DNA of 64,000 nucleotides from the NCBI GenBank assembly GCA_041649715.1, contig JBAZMP010000003.1, positions 36,155 through 100,154 of the forward strand, read 5' to 3'. This stretch comes from Patescibacteria group bacterium. GTDB taxonomy: Bacteria > Patescibacteriota > Patescibacteriia > JAXHNJ01. The notes below the pieces were generated by a model that did no database searches, was not told the DNA's origin, and was given only the letters and a program-made list of their open reading frames with translations. Shown here in pieces: positions 1,296 through 53,046 of the stretch. The position numbers and the translations under genes were made by a program. Positions within the stretch are counted from its first letter, which is position 1; each line of letters opens with the position of its first letter.

Positions 1296-1967
1296 TCAAT
1301 CCTGACCTTCATTATCATCCTGGAGAAAACCGACGCCAAAGCCCTCGGTAAGAGAAGCCGGGCCGCGGCCAATCCCTCCGATATCATCCATGGGGATGCT
1401 GTTCCTGGAACCGGCCACGAAACGCTCCGTCGTGATCTCAAGGTTATCCCGCTGTCCGAGAATCAAACAAGATTGCATAATGATCCGGCACAAGACGCAG
1501 TCCAGCAAATGAGCGTTGATCTTCGCCTGAGTATCTTCGGGTAATACCTTCCTCTTCCGGGGCTTGGAAAACTCCTTTAGCTGCCCGAATGGGAAGTGAT
1601 CCGGACGGATCACATCGATCATGGTCACCATATCAGAACTTTGGCGGAATTCTTCCAAACAGTAAGGAAAACGATTTTCCTCCAGATTTTTCGCCAGGAC
1701 TTCAATCGATCGTTGGGCATCACCACTGCTCATAAAGAGCTCAAAGAACTCCTTGTAATCGAATATCCTGATCTTCAAAGCGACCAGGTGCCCCATCAGA
1801 GCGATCGAAGCGGAAGGAAGAATCTTCCATTCCTGAAGCATTTTTGTAAGGAACTCTTCCTGGCTCGGCGCATCATCAACCTTCACGTTTACCCCCTTGG
1901 AATCAGTTTGTGTGTCAAAACTAACTCTTTGTGAAAAAATATTAGCACTAAAATATAATCCTGTCAA
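1296..1967 (-). CDS. Hypothetical protein (no recognisable domain).
   Basis: 223-aa ORF bracketed by two related hairpin terminators. Overlapping plus-strand ORFs are shorter and judged to be shadows. Start codon uncertain. Confidence 0.35.
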   Translation of the reverse strand: MTGLYFSANIFSQRVSFDTQTDSKGVNVKVDDAPSQEEFLTKMLQEWKILPSASIALMGHLVALKIRIFDYKEFFELFMSSGDAQRSIEVLAKNLEENRFPYCLEEFRQSSDMVTMIDVIRPDHFPFGQLKEFSKPRKRKVLPEDTQAKINAHLLDCVLCRIIMQSCLILGQRDNLEITTERFVAGSRNSIPMDDIGGIGRGPASLTEGFGVGFLQDDNEGQD

Positions 1968-2097: not shown

Positions 2098-2325
2098 TTA
2101 AGGGATGGGCTTGAATTTTTTCTGGATGAAATGACCAGGGGAAGGCGGATCATTCCAATTAAAGAATTTGCCGTCATCAAGCTTATCAGTACAGGCGTAA
2201 GGCAATTCAGTCTCCGGATCATAATGTATACCGGCCCATACGAAAACAGACGCGAATGTATCACCTTTTTTCAATATGACCGAAGAAGATATAGCACCGT
2301 TTATCACTGTAACAGTTACTGGCAT
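2098..2325 (-). CDS. Small hypothetical protein (75 aa).
   Basis: ATG preceded by GGAGGTG at 6-nt spacing on the minus strand. Confidence 0.4.
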   Translation of the reverse strand: MPVTVTVINGAISSSVILKKGDTFASVFVWAGIHYDPETELPYACTDKLDDGKFFNWNDPPSPGHFIQKKFKPIP

Positions 2326-2484
2326 CTCGCACCTCCAATTGTGTTAGCGCAAATTTGACAACGAGCAATTCCTCCACAAACACTTTAACAGAAAGCTGTG
2401 GTAAGTCAAGCAGAGGAAAAATCCGCGCAGGCGCAGAGGCCTGCGCTGTTTTATGGATTTACCGTCATGTTTATATAAAAAAAA

Positions 2485-2538
2485 CAACGCGGGTGTCTCC
2501 GTTCGGCCCGAGCTCACGGCCGAGGGCTGCCCGCGTTG
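2485..2538 (-). repeat. 54-nt GC-rich palindromic element (copy A). It acts as the rplL 3' terminator structure and is repeated in inverted orientation at 25682..25735.
   Basis: caacgcgggtgtctccgttcggcccgagctcacggccgagggctgcccgcgttg, 17 nt after the rplL stop. Nested inverted repeats followed by T-rich sequence on the minus strand. Confidence 0.5.
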
Positions 2539-2554
2539 TTATTGTAAAACGTTG

Positions 2555-2959
2555 TTATTTAAGCGTCACTTTGGCGCCGGCGGTTTCCAGCTTCTTTTTT
2601 ATTTCCGCCGCTTCTTCTTTGGAGGCGCCTTCCTTGACCACCTGTGGGGCCTTATCCACCAGATCCTTGGCTTCCTTCAAGCCTTTCTGGGTGATCTCGC
2701 GGATCACTTTGATGACCGCGATCTTATTGGCGCCACCTTCCGTGATTTCCACGTTAAAGGTGGACTGCTCTTCCGCGGCCGGTCCAGCCGCCGCGCCTGC
2801 GGAGGCCATCATCATCGGGGCCTGGGCCGAAACGCCGAATTTCTCTTCCAGCACTTTCACCAGTTCCGCCAAATCCAGGACCGAGAGTTTTTCAATTTTC
2901 TCGATCATGTCCTTAAATTTTTCCGGAACGGCCACTGTTTTCTTTTCTTCATCTGCCAT
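2555..2959 (-). CDS. rplL: 50S ribosomal protein L7/L12.
   Basis: Characteristic Ala/Glu-rich hinge ([16 protein letters not shown]) and a conserved C-terminal domain ([35 protein letters not shown]). Confidence 0.95.
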
Positions 2960-2986: not shown

Positions 2987-3508
2987 TTAATGACTTTTTT
3001 CCTGGATCGCCTTGAGGACATAAACCAGCTTGTTCAAATTTCCTTTTAAAGTATTCACTAAACCGGTCACCGGGCTCTTGATGACGTAAACCAGCTTGTA
3101 CAGTAATTCTTCTTTACTCGGCAGCTTCGCCATCGCCAAGACCTGCTCTTTCCCAATAAGCTTGTTTTCAAAAATACCGCCGACCAACTTAAGATTTTCG
3201 TGGATTTTGGCGAATTCATAACACAATTTAGCCGGCATGACCTCGTCTTCCAGGCCGAACGCCAAAGCAAAGCCGCTCGTCAGTTCATCTAAATTTATGT
3301 CCATCTTTTTTTCCTTGAGGGCTTTTTTCAAAAGGGTTTTTTTGGCGACGAAATATTCCACCTTATTCTCCCGCAATGTTTTTCTCAATAGATTTATTTC
3401 ATTGACCTTGAGCTTCTCATAATTAACGAAAACCAGGGCTTTCATCGCCTCTAAGTCTTTGGCTAATTTCTTTATTTCCAGTTCTTTTTCCTGGCGTGTT
3501 TTTGGCAT
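2987..3508 (-). CDS. rplJ: 50S ribosomal protein L10.
   Basis: MPKTRQEKELEIKKL... is a typical L10 N-terminus, located immediately upstream of rplL. The track ORF starts at TTG 3532, but ATG 3508 is preferred. Confidence 0.9.
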   Translation of the reverse strand: MPKTRQEKELEIKKLAKDLEAMKALVFVNYEKLKVNEINLLRKTLRENKVEYFVAKKTLLKKALKEKKMDINLDELTSGFALAFGLEDEVMPAKLCYEFAKIHENLKLVGGIFENKLIGKEQVLAMAKLPSKEELLYKLVYVIKSPVTGLVNTLKGNLNKLVYVLKAIQEKSH

Positions 3509-3700
3509 AAAAAAGAGGTCTTGACACCGCAAGACCTAGACAAGCATGGAAGTTTAACTTCACGCTTCTGCCTCGGTAGGAGATTAAGCCCCATTGGGGC
3601 GCCTACGGTCTGCGGCCTAAATAATTTGTTAACTTATCCACATTATAACAGAGCTAAAAATAATGTCAAATATCCAAAAAAGAAAGGGCGGTAAAAAACC
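3509..3700 (-). promoter_or_regulatory. Putative rplJ (L10) leader region with a terminator/attenuator-like hairpin (aggtcttg-cggtgt-caagacct followed by T6) directly abutting the start codon.
   Basis: An 8-bp stem plus cttttttATG on the minus strand at 3509..3539, with further GC-rich hairpins at 3545..3620. L10 leaders acting by attenuation are established in Firmicutes. No SD is visible. Confidence 0.35.
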
Positions 3701-11635: not shown

Positions 11636-11941
11636 ATGATTGATGTATTTAATTTAACCTATTTTTGCTTTTTTGGCAAGGTAAGTGTTTTTAAAGGAAC
11701 AAGATGCAAGAGGCAAGTAACAAATATTTCAATAACCAATATTCAATTTTCAAACCGTTTGCCGACGAACAGTGTTTGGCTATTGGAATTTTGAATTTGG
11801 ATATTGTTTGTATCTTGTGTCACGGTAATTGTTTTTTATACAAACAAACTGGCCCAGAAAGAATAAATAAAACAACCATGGCAAAGAGCCTGAGAGGCTA
11901 AGCTAATAAGCCAAAACTTATTTCTGCTAAAAAATACCCCC

Positions 11942-24590: not shown

Positions 24591-25610
24591 ATGAAAAAAT
24601 TAATGCTGGCCATTACGCTTCTTGCTTTGGCGCTTTCGCCCATAAAGGGAGAGGCTAAAAATCACGGGGGCGTCGCCTCAATCGAAATTTCGCCTGTTAA
24701 CGGCGAAGTGAAGGCGGGAGAGAGTCTGACCCTAAGGCTTACCGCCAAAGACAGCGCCGGTCTGACTTGGGACATCTCGCCAAACGCTTATTTCCAAATC
24801 AATGACCCCCGCGGTTCCCTCAAGAATAATAAATATCTGGCCGGCAAAATCGGCACCTGGAATTTAAGCGTGACCTATGGTAATTTCAGCGCGAAGACAA
24901 CCGTCAAGGTACTGCCAGGCAACCTTGCCACTATCATCATAAATCCGAATTCAAAACCTGAAATCATCGATTTGGGAGCGACCAGAACTTTTAACGCCCA
25001 GGGTTTTGATAAGATGAATAACCTTTTGACAGGCTTGCTTTTTACCTGGTCACAGGAAGATGACTTAGGTGATATCAACCAAAAAGGCGTTTTTACCGCC
25101 AAAGACACCGGCGAGGGAAAAATAATCGCGAGCCTTAACGGTGTTTCCGGCTTCTCGGCCATAAAAGTCAAAGAAAAAACATTGTTGCCGGCGGCCGCGA
25201 ATACAACCAACACCAATACCGCCAGACCAACAACGGCCGTGAATACCAACGCCAATGATAATAATAACAGCAATGTCAACGGCCAGGTCGCCGGAGTGGA
25301 GACAGCCGCGGCCGCGGAAACGACGGAGACAAAAGATGAATGTAAAACGCTCGCCTGGTACTGGTGGGTTTTGATCATGCTCGCGTTTTTCGCCGTTTTG
25401 ATCCTCTATTACTTTTTAATCCGCAAATCAAAAGGCGGCTGGTGGTGGATTTTCCCGCTGATTTTAATAGCCGGCGTAGTCTGGCTCTATTACCAGTACT
25501 CCTGCAACAAATACGGCTGGTGGCCCTGGGTTTCCATCATTATGGCCATACTAATCTCACTTTTCCGGCCAAAGAAGTATTTTGAAGAGCCAAAATCTCC
25601 GACTTTCTAA
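24591..25610 (+). CDS. Secreted Big_2 (bacterial Ig-like) domain protein with a Trp-rich C-terminal double TM anchor.
   Basis: Signal peptide, two Ig-like repeats (IEISPVNGEVKAGESLTL..., IIINPNSKPEIIDLGATRTFNAQGFD...), an Asn/Thr-rich linker and two C-terminal TM helices. Confidence 0.6.
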   Translation: MKKLMLAITLLALALSPIKGEAKNHGGVASIEISPVNGEVKAGESLTLRLTAKDSAGLTWDISPNAYFQINDPRGSLKNNKYLAGKIGTWNLSVTYGNFSAKTTVKVLPGNLATIIINPNSKPEIIDLGATRTFNAQGFDKMNNLLTGLLFTWSQEDDLGDINQKGVFTAKDTGEGKIIASLNGVSGFSAIKVKEKTLLPAAANTTNTNTARPTTAVNTNANDNNNSNVNGQVAGVETAAAAETTETKDECKTLAWYWWVLIMLAFFAVLILYYFLIRKSKGGWWWIFPLILIAGVVWLYYQYSCNKYGWWPWVSIIMAILISLFRPKKYFEEPKSPTF

Positions 25611-25636
25611 ATATCATCAAATCTAAAAATACAAGA

Positions 25637-25668
25637 AAAACCTCTTCCTTTTGGAAAGAGGTTTTTCG
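25637..25668 (+). terminator. Intrinsic terminator (aacctcttcc-tttt-ggaaagaggtt followed by tttc).
   Basis: 10-bp stem and T-run, 27 nt after the stop at 25610. Confidence 0.55.
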
Positions 25669-25681
25669 GATATTAATGGCT

Positions 25682-25735
25682 CAGCGCGGACAGCCTTCGG
25701 CCGTGAGCTCGGGCCGAACGGAGACATCCGCGCTG
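25682..25735 (+). repeat. 54-nt GC-rich palindromic element (copy B). It is the inverted copy of 2485..2538 with compensatory stem substitutions.
   Basis: cagcgcggacagccttcggccgtgagctcgggccgaacggagacatccgcgctg; its reverse complement matches copy A at about 49/54 nt. Followed by ttatttcaatatt. Confidence 0.5.
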
Positions 25736-25803
25736 TTATTTCAATATTCCTGTTTATTTTTAAAAAAAATAACGCCGGTCTTGAGCGCCCGCGTTGTAAC
25801 TTT

Positions 25804-26619
25804 TTAGAAGATTAGAAAATATACAATCACGATTATCGCCAGGACTAACCGGTAATAGGCAAAAATATTTAGCGAGTGATTTTTTAAATAATTCAAAAGA
25901 AATCTGACCGCCCAGTAGCCGGCCAAGGCGGCGGCCAAAAATCCTAAGAGATAAATAATCATCTCATGACCGCTGAAAGAATGGGAAAATAGTTCCGTCA
26001 TCTTTTTCACCACCGCCCCGAAAATCACCGGGATAGAAAGCAAAAAGGAAAATCTCGCCGCTTCCTCCCTTTTCAATTTCTGGGTCATACCGGCCAAGAT
26101 GGTTATCCCGGAACGGGATACACCGGGTATTAAAGCGATGGCCTGGCACAAACCGATGATAATCGCCCCGTTTAAACCCATCTCTTTCAATCCTTTTGTC
26201 TTTTGGCTGTATTTTTCCAAAATCAGGAATAGAAGACCGACGAGAATCATCATGACTGCCACTAAAAATGGCGAGCGGAAAATCGTCTCGGCTTTATCTT
26301 CGAGTAAAAAACCGAATATACCGGCGGGAATGGCGGCCACTAAAATAAACCAGGCTAACCGCTGATTTTCGTCATTTTTTAAGTCCCACTTGACCAAGCT
26401 TTTGAAAAATGCGGACAAATAGGCTATAATATCCTTAGAGAAAAAAACCACCAGGGCCAAGAGGGTGCCGGCATGCAAGATCACGTCAAAGCTCAAGTCA
26501 TCCTGCAGCCGGAAATTTAGCAAGCGATGCAGAATGACCAAATGGCCGGAACTCGAGATAGGCAAAAACTCCGTCAGCCCCTGAATGCCTCCGAAAAAGA
26601 TTGAGTAAATATAGTCCAT
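25804..26619 (-). CDS. uppP: Undecaprenyl-diphosphatase (BacA/UppP).
   Basis: GLTEFLPISSSGHL and GVSRSG motifs; 8-TM architecture. Confidence 0.85.
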   Translation of the reverse strand: MDYIYSIFFGGIQGLTEFLPISSSGHLVILHRLLNFRLQDDLSFDVILHAGTLLALVVFFSKDIIAYLSAFFKSLVKWDLKNDENQRLAWFILVAAIPAGIFGFLLEDKAETIFRSPFLVAVMMILVGLLFLILEKYSQKTKGLKEMGLNGAIIIGLCQAIALIPGVSRSGITILAGMTQKLKREEAARFSFLLSIPVIFGAVVKKMTELFSHSFSGHEMIIYLLGFLAAALAGYWAVRFLLNYLKNHSLNIFAYYRLVLAIIVIVYFLIF

Positions 26620-33560: not shown

Positions 33561-33608
33561 TGTTTAAATTCTAAATTCTAATCTCGAAATCCGAAACAAT
33601 TTCTAAGC
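33561..33608 (-). repeat. GGATTT-family repeat element. This copy is the left inverted repeat flanking gene 33780..34436.
   Basis: Its reverse complement, gcttagaaattgtttcggatttcgagattagaatttagaattta, matches the right flank 34640..34700 (tttcggattt...agaatttaggattta) at roughly 80% identity. Confidence 0.45.
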
Positions 33609-34631: not shown

Positions 34632-34700
34632 ACGGGTTTCGGATTTGGAATTTCGGATTTAGGATTTGTTTAGAATTTAGGATTTAGGATTTCGGATTTT
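34632..34700 (+). repeat. GGATTT-family repeat element with internal tandem 9-11 nt units. This copy is the right inverted repeat of the 33780..34436 cassette.
   Basis: gaaacgggtttcggatttggaatttcggatttaggatttgtttagaatttaggatttaggatttcggatttt. Degenerate tandem units with irregular period. Confidence 0.45.
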
Positions 34701-43644: not shown

Positions 43645-43942
43645 AGCTTTTCCTCCTGTCTAAGGCTTTCGCTACTAAACCGGACATGACGAATGACCGG
43701 CACTCCCATACCTTGGGAGATTTCGCGGCTTTGGCTTTGGTAGCCGCAGCGCCAACACCACTCCACTCAATCCTTACTAAAAGAGCCCGTAAAGAAGTGA
43801 GGTAGGCACTGCAGCCAAACTTGCCGATGAATTTTAAAAGAGTTTATTATATTCTCACGGATCCGCAATTCTGTCAATTTTAGCTTGTGGATAAATTTTT
43901 TGGTTATCTAACGTATAAATTATTAAATAGTCCAAGCCAGTT

Positions 43943-43972
43943 TCGGATTTTGAGTTTAGAATTTTTTATTTA
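43943..43972 (+). repeat. Third copy of the GGATTT-family element (gtttcggattttgagtttagaattttttattta), overlapping the 3' end of gene 43966..44226.
   Basis: Matches reverse-complemented 33571..33600 and 34640..34680 (tttcggattt-[ct]gag-[at]ttagaattt). Confidence 0.35.
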
Positions 43973-47477: not shown

Positions 47478-47598
47478 GATGTTTTTAATTAAAATATTAA
47501 ATATATAAACTGTAAAGCGACGGCCTGTTTTGAATTTTGGATTTTAAGCATTTGATTTTGTTTTGTGCTTTGGATTTTGGAATTAGGGTTTGAACGAG

Positions 47599-52973: not shown

Positions 52974-53046
52974 CGGGGTATGGCCTAATTGGCAAGGCGC
53001 ACGCTTCGGGTGCGTGAGATTCTGGGTTCAACTCCCAGTACCCCGA
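52974..53046 (+). tRNA. tRNA-Pro (anticodon CGG).
   Basis: Manual cloverleaf: 7-bp acceptor with C1-G72, D-arm with G18G19, anticodon stem cacgc/gcgtg with loop ttCGGgt (U33, G37), 5-nt variable loop, T-arm ctggg-TTCAACT-cccag, A73. CCA is not encoded. Confidence 0.85.

What the first reader, a model, noticed from the sequence alone, without database searches (positions are those of the whole stretch)
2485..2538. 54-nt GC-rich palindromic element present twice in inverted orientation with compensatory stem changes
Copy A (2485..2538, after the rplL stop) and copy B (25682..25735, after the adhesin/sortase/Big_2 block and its terminator) are reverse complements of each other at about 49/54 nt. 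The outer stem differs by paired substitutions (cagcgcggA...Tccgcgctg versus caacgcggG...Cccgcgttg), which preserves base pairing. Both copies read in the same sense relative to the gene they follow and are followed by T-rich sequence. This points to a conserved structured RNA element, either a complex terminator or a REP-like element, rather than chance similarity.
Basis: seen in the sequence. Interest (0 to 1): 0.6.

Follow-up and report, generated by a model that had tools for sequence, protein, structure and literature searches.

The report
Tiny mobile hairpin inside terminator loops
The two 54-nt GC-rich palindromes are ordinary gene-end hairpins of this candidate-phyla-radiation bacterium, each carrying a precisely inserted 28-nt hairpin module in its loop; the same module recurs almost letter for letter in intergenic hairpins of unrelated bacteria, so it behaves like one of the smallest mobile DNA elements described.

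Summary
Copies at 2485-2538 (sense on the minus strand, after rplL) and 25682-25735 (plus strand) are reverse complements at 49/54 nt. Four of the five differences form two compensatory stem pairs.

Each copy is a composite of two layers:
- **Outer layer:** a lineage-specific 26-nt hairpin (9-bp stem, 8-nt loop) at gene 3' ends.
- **Inner layer:** a 28-nt module, CCYTCGGCCGTGAGCTCRGGCCGAACGG, inserted in the loop at CAG^AGACA.

The closest relatives carry the same hairpins at the same two loci without the module, so these are empty sites. The module occurs in 31 places in reference genomes (Desulfobacterota MAGs, Ca. Komeilibacteria and others) and in more than 118 metagenome contigs. It is intergenic in the 33 instances checked (31 reference-genome places and both window copies), sits in about 30 unrelated flank contexts, and usually lies at a hairpin apex after a G. 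Exact 28-nt presence/absence pairs exist in five unrelated contexts. A derivative sits in frame inside a dus gene.

There is no Rfam family, no arrays, no neighbouring transposase and no match in phage or plasmid collections.

Copy A, followed by U8, probably still terminates rplL transcription. The module itself is best read as a tiny non-autonomous mobile palindrome. What mobilises it is unknown.

The parts
2485..2538 (-). Composite hairpin A: host stem CAACGCGGG (2530-2538) / CCCGCGTTG (2485-2493), loop remnants CAG (2527-2529) and AGACA (2494-2498), with the 28-nt module between them
   Evidence: the orthologous hairpin without the module is in L154
2499..2526 (-). 28-nt module, copy A: CCCTCGGCCGTGAGCTCGGGCCGAACGG (the common C...G subtype)
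2477..2484 (-). U8 tract directly after the 3' arm of hairpin A (A8 on the plus strand); together with the stem this gives the features of an intrinsic terminator for rplJ-rplL
   Evidence: function inferred
2425..2446 (.). Second, canonical GC-rich hairpin with T-runs on both strands (bidirectional terminator-like), about 40 nt downstream of hairpin A; conserved in relative L154
2555..2959 (-). rplL (ribosomal protein L7/L12), the gene that copy A follows; the L10 leader lies at 3501-3633 upstream of rplJ
25682..25735 (+). Composite hairpin B: host stem CAGCGCGGA (25682-25690) / TCCGCGCTG (25727-25735), loop remnants CAG (25691-25693) and AGACA (25722-25726), with the 28-nt module between them
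   Evidence: exact empty site CAGCGCGGACAGAGACATCCGCGCTG in L155 and L156
25694..25721 (+). 28-nt module, copy B: CCTTCGGCCGTGAGCTCGGGCCGAACGG (T...G, the only instance of this combination among 119 unique copies)
25635..25667 (.). Simple AT-rich hairpin terminator of the ORF at 24591-25610; it lies upstream of hairpin B and is conserved in relatives
25762..25796 (-). Degenerate third member of the host hairpin family (AACGCCGG...CCCGCGTTG on the plus strand) followed on the minus strand by U8: the terminator-like element of the convergent uppP gene; orthologous to intact hairpins in L155 and L156
24591..25610 (+).
25804..26619 (-). uppP (undecaprenyl-diphosphatase), convergent with the ORF upstream of copy B

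Best explanation
Each 54-nt element is a two-layer composite.

**Layer 1 (host).** A short GC-rich hairpin, CARCGCGGR-N8-YCCGCGYTG, that this CPR lineage carries at gene 3' ends. At rplL it is followed by U8 and most likely acts as the first of two tandem intrinsic terminators.

**Layer 2 (guest).** A 28-nt imperfect palindrome, CCYTCGGCC-GTGAGCTCR-GGCCGAACGG, inserted precisely into the 8-nt loop between CAG and AGACA. An equally consistent description is 27 nt plus a duplicated G. The insertion adds a second helix on top of the host stem.

The guest is a tiny, non-autonomous, sequence-specific insertion module. It is dispersed in intergenic hairpins of Desulfobacterota, at least three CPR lineages and probably others.

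**Shown:**
- exact presence/absence at orthologous and paralogous sites;
- about 30 independent insertion contexts;
- a G immediately 5' of the insertion (consensus C-N-G^A-G);
- a preference for hairpin apices;
- nesting of modules within module-like hairpins;
- an in-frame coding insertion of a derivative.

**Inferred:**
- It moves as DNA and is mobilised in trans by an enzyme that recognises the hairpin. My best guess is an HUH/Y1-type single-strand DNA transposase cutting 3' of CNG at the target and 3' of the module's own terminal CGG (about 0.3; no such gene was found nearby).
- Within the window, the second copy arose either by a second insertion or by loop-tract gene conversion between the paralogous hairpins.
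- Once inserted, the module is simply transcribed as part of the 3' hairpin, raising predicted stability from about -16 to about -30 kcal/mol. There is no evidence of a dedicated host function.
For: **Empty sites in relatives.**
- L154 (RplL 90% identical) has ...CAATAACAACGCGGCCTAGAAAGGCCGCGTTG... at the rplL stop. This is the same outer stem without the module.
- L155 and L156 (UppP 85% identical) have CAGCGCGGACAGAGACATCCGCGCTG at the copy-B position. This matches window B minus exactly 28 nt.
- More distant relatives have unrelated simple terminators.
- No module occurs in about 72 kb of relatives' DNA.

**Distribution.**
- 31 exact 23-mer hits in GTDB species genomes, up to 9 per genome.
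- 119 unique instances in 29-32 flank clusters.

**Precise indels and target site.**
- Exact 28-nt filled/empty pairs with 0 flank mismatches in 5 unrelated contexts, and more with 1-3 mismatches.
- G at position -1 in 28 of 29 clusters and C at -3 in 21 of 29.
- Flanks are more self-complementary than control windows 120-380 nt away (p = 2e-4).

**Nesting and coding insertion.**
- Nested composites.
- A 24-nt mini-hairpin indel at one locus.
- An in-frame 66-nt derivative in dus that is absent from 5 homologs.

**Host hairpin and folding.**
- Host hairpin stem covariation.
- Fold energies.
Against: - No mobilising enzyme was identified. tblastn with RayT and IS200 TnpA sequences (recalled from memory) over 1.1 Mb of flanks found only one IS200-like gene, and its end hairpins are unrelated to the module.
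- Neighbouring genes are unenriched housekeeping genes.
- Module orientation shows no bias relative to local GC skew (47:45). This argues weakly against IS200/IS605-style lagging-strand targeting.
- Only two copies lie in this 64-kb window, so activity in this genome is low or past.
- Filled/empty variation within a repeat family needs only one insertion per family.
- At rplL the relative's loop (CCTAGAAAGG) differs from the CAG/AGACA loop around the module, so copy A could result from gene conversion rather than a fresh insertion.
- Terminator function is inferred from sequence only. The simple terminator scanner does not call the composite hairpins because of its loop limit.
Confidence: 0.78

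Rival explanations
1. The whole 54-nt unit is one conserved structured RNA (a complex terminator or cis-regulatory 3' element) maintained by selection on RNA structure.
For: - Sense orientation after the upstream gene at both window copies, and after tRNA and tmRNA genes in Komeilibacteria.
- Compensatory outer-stem changes.
- U8 directly after copy A.
- Stable folds.
- Linked C..G / T..A variants within the module, 84:34:1:0.
Against: - The closest relatives keep the outer hairpin but lack the inner 28 nt at both loci.
- In other genomes the module lies in either orientation relative to genes: about 17 same sense, 8 antisense, 3 in divergent promoter regions.
- There is no sense/antisense folding asymmetry.
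- No Rfam hit, even at E <= 10.
- The module sequence is almost invariant instead of covarying. The linked variants are equally explained by two subfamilies of a mobile element.
Confidence: 0.08
2. It is a classical REP/REPIN element mobilised by a RAYT (REP-associated tyrosine transposase) encoded elsewhere in each genome.
For: - It is an intergenic, GC-rich imperfect palindrome of REP size with a bulged stem.
- It is multicopy in Desulfobacterota MAGs.
- It inserts without an evident target duplication.
- REPs and RAYTs are reported to show lateral transfer between distant taxa (PMC3116915).
Against: - No RAYT-like ORF in 1.1 Mb around about 150 copies, although REPs characteristically flank their RAYT (PMC3116915).
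- Copies are overwhelmingly singlets, not inverted doublets.
- There are only 2 copies in this 64-kb window.
- Near-identity across phyla is unlike the species-specific REP classes.
- No strand bias relative to GC skew.
Confidence: 0.15
3. The module spreads not by transposition but by recombination or template switching between hairpin repeats: gene conversion of loop tracts, or replication template switches at palindromes. On this view the window's two copies reflect one conversion event.
For: - The two host hairpins are paralogous and share the identical CAG...AGACA loop context.
- At rplL the relative's loop differs, as expected if a B-like loop plus module replaced it.
- Filled and empty copies coexist within repeat families.
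Against: - About 30 flank contexts have no homology to one another beyond C-N-G^A-G.
- Insertions occur in AT-rich repeats, terminator loops, a gene's stop-codon region and inside dus, where no homologous donor tract exists.
- Boundaries are identical to the nucleotide in every context.
Confidence: 0.12
4. Chance similarity, or an assembly, vector or chimera artefact.
For: Palindromes can be mis-assembled, and most of the sequences are MAGs or metagenome contigs.
Against: - 0 matches expected by chance.
- The same window sequence is carried by independent ENA, NCBI, JGI and Logan records.
- The module is embedded in conserved, genome-specific flanks across many studies.
- No hits in plasmid or phage collections.
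Confidence: 0.01

Closest known systems
REP / REPIN elements with RAYT transposases (Proteobacteria)
   Same: Short GC-rich imperfect palindromes in intergenic space, often at gene 3' ends. Thought to be non-autonomous and mobilised in trans without target duplication. They can build mosaic clusters (PMC3116915, PMC3184786).
   Different: - 28 nt occurring as a single hairpin rather than an inverted doublet.
- No RAYT found near any copy.
- Low copy number in this genome.
- Nearly identical sequence in different phyla.
- Inserted specifically into hairpin loops.
Cyanobacterial small dispersed repeats (SDR; Elhai et al. 2008, Genome Res 18:1484). The paper was not readable here; it is cited via PMC2884548 and PMC3116915, and the details are from my own knowledge.
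   Same: Mobile-looking repeats of about 20-30 bp, too small to encode anything. They are seen as precise presence/absence differences, are found inside other repeats, and have no known mechanism.
   Different: Different sequence and different phyla. The SDRs are described mainly within tandem heptamer repeats of cyanobacteria, not at hairpin apices of terminators and MITE-like repeats.
Yeast mitochondrial palindromic GC clusters (e.g. GC42)
   Same: GC-rich palindromes of 30-45 nt in AT-rich genomes, with sporadic presence/absence. Their hairpin structure is constrained, and units merge and shuffle into composite palindromes. They insert at AG-containing targets, and the mechanism is unresolved (PMC4478555).
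   Different: Those elements are organellar and eukaryotic, and AG target-site duplication is reported for them. Here there is at most a 1-nt G duplication, and the hosts are bacteria.
Rickettsia palindromic elements (RPE) and other MITE-like repeats (Correia, SPRITE, RUP)
   Same: Palindromic selfish repeats. RPEs insert in frame in protein genes, as the 66-nt derivative does in dus. SPRITE is a mobile element resembling a Rho-independent terminator (PMC3184786).
   Different: Those elements are about 100-170 nt, and MITEs have terminal inverted repeats plus target duplications. The module is 28 nt with no target duplication of 2 nt or more.
IS200/IS605-family 'peel-and-paste' transposition and its hairpin-only derivatives (PATEs)
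   Same: Recognition of a hairpin, insertion 3' of a short specific sequence without duplication, and precise excision. The consensus C-N-G at the target resembles the module's own 3' end, CGG.
   Different: - A single hairpin instead of distinct left and right ends.
- No TnpA linked to any copy.
- No replication-strand bias by the GC-skew proxy.
Intrinsic (Rho-independent) terminators
   Same: The outer 9-bp GC stem followed directly by U8 after rplL, with tandem arrangement alongside a second canonical terminator.
   Different: After insertion the 'loop' is 36 nt and folds into a second helix. Copy B has only a weak U-tract and sits behind another terminator.

Membership tests
Intrinsic terminator | GC-rich stem immediately followed by a U-tract, downstream of a gene in sense orientation | tested here: met
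   Copy A has a 9-bp stem followed by U8, 16 nt after the rplL stop. Copy B has the tail UUAUUUCAAUAUU, which is only a weak match.
Intrinsic terminator | Compact hairpin (loop about 3-8 nt) | tested here: not met
   The host hairpin without the module has an 8-nt loop (L155, L156). The composite has 36 nt between the arms, and the scanner does not call it.
Intrinsic terminator | Transcript 3' ends at the U-tract in vivo | not testable with these tools
   No RNA data are available for this uncultured organism.
REP / REPIN-RAYT | Repetitive, extragenic, palindromic, 20-40 nt | tested here: met
   The module is intergenic in all 33 instances examined (31 reference-genome places and both window copies), is an imperfect palindrome, and is multicopy in Desulfobacterota MAGs. 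There are only 2 copies in this window.
REP / REPIN-RAYT | A RAYT gene flanked by the REPs | tested here: not met
   tblastn with an E. coli RayT sequence (recalled from memory) against 1.1 Mb of module-bearing loci gave a best E-value of 0.14. Whole genomes could not be searched, so a distant RAYT is not excluded.
REP / REPIN-RAYT | Organisation mainly as inverted doublets (REPINs) | tested here: not met
   Nearly all loci hold a single module. The few multi-module loci are nested or spaced 200-900 nt apart.
MITE | Terminal inverted repeats plus target-site duplication, size about 50-400 bp | tested here: not met
   Filled/empty pairs show an exact 28-nt difference with at most a 1-nt (G) ambiguity. 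Some host repeats that carry the module (for example the 155-nt family with CTTAG ends) are MITE-like.
IS200/IS605-type hairpin element | Insertion 3' of a specific short target, without duplication | tested here: met
   G at -1 in 28 of 29 flank clusters and C at -3 in 21 of 29; no duplication of 2 nt or more.
IS200/IS605-type hairpin element | Y1 (HUH) transposase present and orientation bias relative to replication | tested here: inconclusive
   One IS200-like TnpA was found in L050, with unrelated end hairpins. Orientation relative to local GC skew is 47:45.
Any Rfam RNA family | Covariance-model match | tested here: not met
   There are no hits at gathering score in the window or in 18 loci. 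At E <= 10 there are only hairpin-shaped noise matches.
CRISPR repeat | Regularly spaced arrays of the repeat | tested here: not met
   Each locus has one match, rarely two at irregular spacing.
Very small mobile repeats (SDR-like; descriptive class) | Repeat of 30 nt or less showing precise presence/absence at otherwise identical sites in several unrelated contexts | tested here: met
   Two orthologous empty sites exist. Five exact paralogous or orthologous pairs exist.

The most novel reading that the evidence does not exclude
The 28-nt module is an active mobile element mobilised in trans, and among the smallest in bacteria. It targets C-N-G^A-G motifs exposed at hairpin apices (terminator loops, other repeats, even coding DNA), and builds nested 'Russian-doll' palindromes. 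It has crossed between Desulfobacterota and several CPR lineages living in the same sediments and groundwaters. Its mobilising enzyme would then be a new or unrecognised hairpin-loop-specific DNA transposase or nuclease. Its sharing pattern might also trace physical associations between CPR episymbionts and their hosts.
Probability: 0.3. Interest if true: 0.8.

Novelty: new variant of a known kind. Interest (0 to 1): 0.62.

Why it matters
- **Cross-phylum identity.** A 28-nt sequence that inserts precisely, without encoding anything, and is kept nearly identical from Desulfobacterota to ultra-small CPR genomes implies a conserved trans-acting machinery that has not been identified. It may be a hairpin-loop-specific DNA insertion activity.
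- **Origin of composite repeats.** The finding gives a concrete, checkable example of how complex palindromic repeats and MITE-like families are assembled by nesting of mini-hairpins.
- **Effect on gene ends and genes.** It shows how terminator hairpins, and even protein genes, are remodelled by such elements.
- **Annotation.** Practically, the composite hairpins should not be annotated as a new regulatory RNA.
- **Possible marker.** The module could serve as a marker for horizontal exchange between CPR bacteria and co-resident Desulfobacterota.

Tried and rejected
- **Rfam.** Gathering-score search on the window and 18 loci, and an E <= 10 search around copy A, found nothing but hairpin noise.
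- **Literature search for the sequence.** Full-text search for the core as DNA or RNA returned 0 papers.
- **Plasmids, phages, viral contigs.** BLAST of the core against plasmids and phages gave only chance hits in NRPS genes and the like. IMG/VR scans with exact and loop-degenerate patterns returned 0.
- **Strand of function.** There is no sense-versus-antisense MFE asymmetry, so G-U evidence for an RNA-level role is absent.
- **Alternative pairing or pseudoknot (GCCY/RGGC plus CCGU/ACGG).** This idea came from the strict linkage of positions 3 and 18 (84 C/G, 34 T/A, 1 T/G, 0 C/A) and from one variant. I do not adopt it, because subfamily inheritance in a mobile element explains the linkage equally well.
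- **Transposases.** The RAYT and IS200 TnpA searches and the neighbour-gene Pfam enrichment found no association.
- **Replication-strand bias.** The GC-skew proxy showed none.
- **Integron attC and CRISPR-repeat readings.** Rejected: no R'/R'' core sites, no cassette context, no arrays.
- **Lineage-specific ORFs next to copy A.** Pfam scan of the two small ORFs found no families.
- **Contig walking.** I could not walk the 235-kb source contig beyond about 7 kb outside the window.

Full report
**Observation.** In the sense of the upstream gene they read:
- A = CAACGCGGG-CAG-CCCTCGGCCGTGAGCTCGGGCCGAACGG-AGACA-CCCGCGTTG (minus strand, 2538->2485, 16 nt after the rplL stop).
- B = CAGCGCGGA-CAG-CCTTCGGCCGTGAGCTCGGGCCGAACGG-AGACA-TCCGCGCTG (plus strand, 25682-25735).

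They share 49 of 54 positions. Four differences are two compensatory pairs in the outer stem, and the fifth is C/T in the inner part. A 25-nt core occurs exactly twice in the window, against 0 in 100 shuffles. The repeat finder extends the similarity to 66 nt. Both fold into long hairpins of -30 to -32 kcal/mol. Copy A is followed directly by U8, and copy B by UUAUUUCAAUAUU.

**Local anatomy.**
- rplL (2555-2959, minus strand) belongs to an rplJ-rplL operon with an L10 leader at 3501-3633.
- About 40 nt beyond hairpin A lies a second, canonical, bidirectional terminator-like hairpin at 2425-2446.
- Copy B lies between convergent genes: a 339-aa membrane-anchored ORF (24591-25610) and uppP (25804-26619).
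- Copy B sits behind that ORF's own simple terminator at 25635-25667.
- A degenerate third hairpin with the same stem motif, plus U8 on the minus strand (25762-25796), follows uppP.
- The window is part of a 235-kb contig of a Patescibacteria (CPR) MAG.

**The inner part is found far outside this genome.**
- An exact 23-mer of the core occurs at 31 places in GTDB species genomes. Most are in Desulfobacterota/Syntrophobacteria MAGs, with up to 9 places per genome. Two are in Ca. Komeilibacteria CG11 (one just after the tmRNA gene, one between tRNA genes). One each lies on short contigs binned as Verrucomicrobiales and Planctomycetaceae, where mis-binning is possible.
- One AT-rich contig (L103) is Peregrinibacteria-like by its Dus protein.
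- Across 119 unique instances the conserved block is G|CCYTCGGCCGTGAGCTCRGGCCGAACGG, while the flanks fall into about 30 unrelated clusters.
- The block is intergenic in all 33 instances examined (31 reference-genome places and both window copies). Its orientation relative to neighbouring genes is mixed.
- Nothing similar is in Rfam, plasmids, phages or IMG/VR, or in the searchable literature.

**Empty sites in relatives.**
- The closest relative recovered for rplL is L154 (RplL 90% identical). At the same position it has ...CAATAACAACGCGGCCTAGAAAGGCCGCGTTG...: the same outer stem with a plain loop. Further downstream it has the same second terminator.
- For copy B, the orthologous intergenic region in L156 (same sample as L154) and L155 (an NCBI MAG), both 85% identical in UppP, reads CAGCGCGGACAGAGACATCCGCGCTG. 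This is window copy B minus exactly the 28 nt CCTTCGGCCGTGAGCTCGGGCCGAACGG, inserted between CAG and AGACA of an 8-nt loop.
- More distant relatives have unrelated simple terminators at both places.
- About 72 kb of relatives' DNA contains no module.

So the 54-nt element has two layers. The outer layer is a small lineage-specific hairpin family, CARCGCGGR-N8-YCCGCGYTG. It has 9 stem pairs, two of them with compensatory changes, and 92% of cells are paired against 29-54% when the partner is slid. The inner layer is the widespread 28-nt module.

**Behaviour of the module elsewhere.**
- Joining the 14 nt on each side of every module and searching for that junction found exact (0-mismatch) empty counterparts in five unrelated contexts, and near-exact ones in at least seven more. 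The contexts include AT-rich repeats, MITE-like families and GC-rich hairpins.
- Among 29 independent flank clusters, the base before the module is G in 28 and position -3 is C in 21. The two bases after it are most often A-G. The 20-nt flanks pair with each other more strongly than adjacent control windows (Mann-Whitney p = 2e-4). The module therefore sits preferentially at hairpin apices.
- Because the module ends in G and follows a G, 27 nt plus a 1-nt duplication is equally possible.
- In GC-rich genomes, module-like hairpins are nested inside one another: an outer unit alone 3 times and with an insert 11 times; a middle unit empty once and filled 18 times.
- One locus differs from its ortholog by a 24-nt mini-hairpin with the same GAGCTC loop.
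- In L050 the module overlaps the stop codon of a gene.
- In L103 a 66-nt module-derived palindrome sits in frame inside dus. It adds 22 residues that are absent from five homologs.

**What it is not.**
- There are no CRISPR-like arrays and no attC features.
- tblastn with RayT and IS200 TnpA (both sequences recalled from memory) over 1.1 Mb of module-bearing DNA found only one IS200-like gene, whose own end hairpins are unrelated.
- 145 neighbouring ORFs hit 179 Pfam families, none enriched (at most 4 members) and no transposase family among the 25 most-represented families listed.
- Module orientation is unrelated to local GC skew, 47:45.
- Sense and antisense strands fold equally well.
- Positions 3 and 18 of the module are strictly linked (C/G 84, T/A 34, T/G 1, which is window copy B, and C/A 0). 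This could mean an alternative pairing, but two subfamilies of a mobile element explain it as well, so I do not build on it.

**Mechanism.**

Shown:
- precise insertion-type polymorphism;
- many independent contexts;
- a sequence preference (C-N-G^A-G) and a structural preference (hairpin apex);
- nesting.

Inferred:
- The module is non-autonomous DNA moved by a trans-acting enzyme that recognises its hairpin. The absence of a target duplication of 2 nt or more, the hairpin, and the resemblance between the target C-N-G and the module's own 3' CGG point to an HUH/Y1-type single-strand mechanism. That is my best guess, at about 0.3. The lack of a linked gene and of strand bias keep it a guess.
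- In the window, the second copy may be a second insertion, or a loop-tract gene conversion between the paralogous hairpins. At rplL the relative's loop differs from CAG/AGACA.
- Functionally, hairpin A plus U8 has the features of the first of two tandem rplL terminators. The module raises predicted hairpin stability from about -16 to about -30 kcal/mol. There is no evidence that the host needs it.

**Comparison and novelty.** The closest known elements are the following.
- REP/REPIN-RAYT elements (PMC3116915).
- Cyanobacterial small dispersed repeats (Elhai 2008, cited in PMC2884548 and PMC3116915; the paper itself was not readable here).
- Yeast mitochondrial GC clusters such as GC42, which also merge into composite palindromes (PMC4478555).
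- Rickettsia RPEs, pneumococcal SPRITE and MITEs in general (PMC3184786).

The module works like these: it is selfish, palindromic and trans-mobilised. It fails the defining tests for REP/RAYT (no RAYT nearby, singlets) and for MITEs (no TIR/TSD, too small). I rate it a new variant of a known kind. It is unusual for its 28-nt size, its loop targeting and its near-identity across phyla.

**Caveats.**
- All sequences are MAGs or metagenome contigs.
- Taxonomic labels of the short contigs may be wrong.
- Whole genomes could not be scanned, so copy numbers per genome and the mobilising gene remain open.
- Terminator activity is untested.

Noticed in passing
window 34636-34699, 43940-43971, 33565-33597, 11774-11805, 47560-47591: AT-rich GGATTT/GAATTT-type short repeats (family D2). 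Very similar repeats form the host flanks of the 28-nt module in other AT-rich metagenome contigs (L074, L128, L079, L093, L059, L129). The window's own copies carry no module.
   Followed up: partly
window ~1193-2480 (L001 10480-11767): A segment of about 1.3 kb lies between rplL and the convergent 744-aa gene. It carries two small ORFs (75 aa at 2098-2325 minus strand; about 196-223 aa at 1296-1967 minus strand), each with its own promoter-like and terminator-like signals and no Pfam family. The segment is absent in relatives L152 and L153, where rplL abuts the 744-aa gene.
   Followed up: partly
L103 2311-2376: An in-frame 66-nt palindromic insertion derived from the module (antisense orientation) lies inside the tRNA-dihydrouridine synthase gene of a Peregrinibacteria-like contig. 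It adds RSASPFEAPRPSGPSGSSRPRG, which is absent from five homologs. This behaviour resembles Rickettsia palindromic elements.
   Followed up: yes
L139 vs L022 (same locus in two assemblies); L004, L014, L031, L033 etc.: A MITE-like family of about 155 nt in a Rifle Deltaproteobacteria MAG (MGQK01) has ends CTTAGTGCTTCGATTC...GAATCGAAGGACTTAG and copies that are 98-100% identical. L139 carries an extra 24-nt mini-hairpin, CGACTTCGGCGAGCTCAGCCGAGC, relative to L022.
   Followed up: partly
L050 287-314 and 1736-2161: The module overlaps the last codons and stop of a PEP-CTERM-like protein gene. An IS200-like TnpA gene 1.4 kb away has its own CCACCRGCTCTGCYGGTGG end hairpins, which are unrelated to the module.
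   Followed up: yes
all module copies (positions 3 and 18 of the 28-mer): The two variable positions are strictly linked: C/G 84, T/A 34, T/G 1 (window copy B), C/A 0. Both subtypes occur in the same genomes and flank families. This is either an alternative base pair (GCCY/RGGC) or two element subfamilies.
   Followed up: partly
window 3501-3633 (-) and 52974-53046 (+): Rfam L10 leader upstream of rplJ (60 bits) and one tRNA gene. These are the only Rfam hits in the window.
   Followed up: no
It has an N-terminal signal-like segment and C-terminal hydrophobic segments.
   Followed up: partly
L008 2190-2250; L028 7084-7209: In Ca. Komeilibacteria the module sits in a repeat of about 98 nt immediately downstream of the tmRNA gene and between tRNA-Ala and tRNA-Val. 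In both places it is in the sense of transcription and is followed by TTTTATATAAA.
   Followed up: partly
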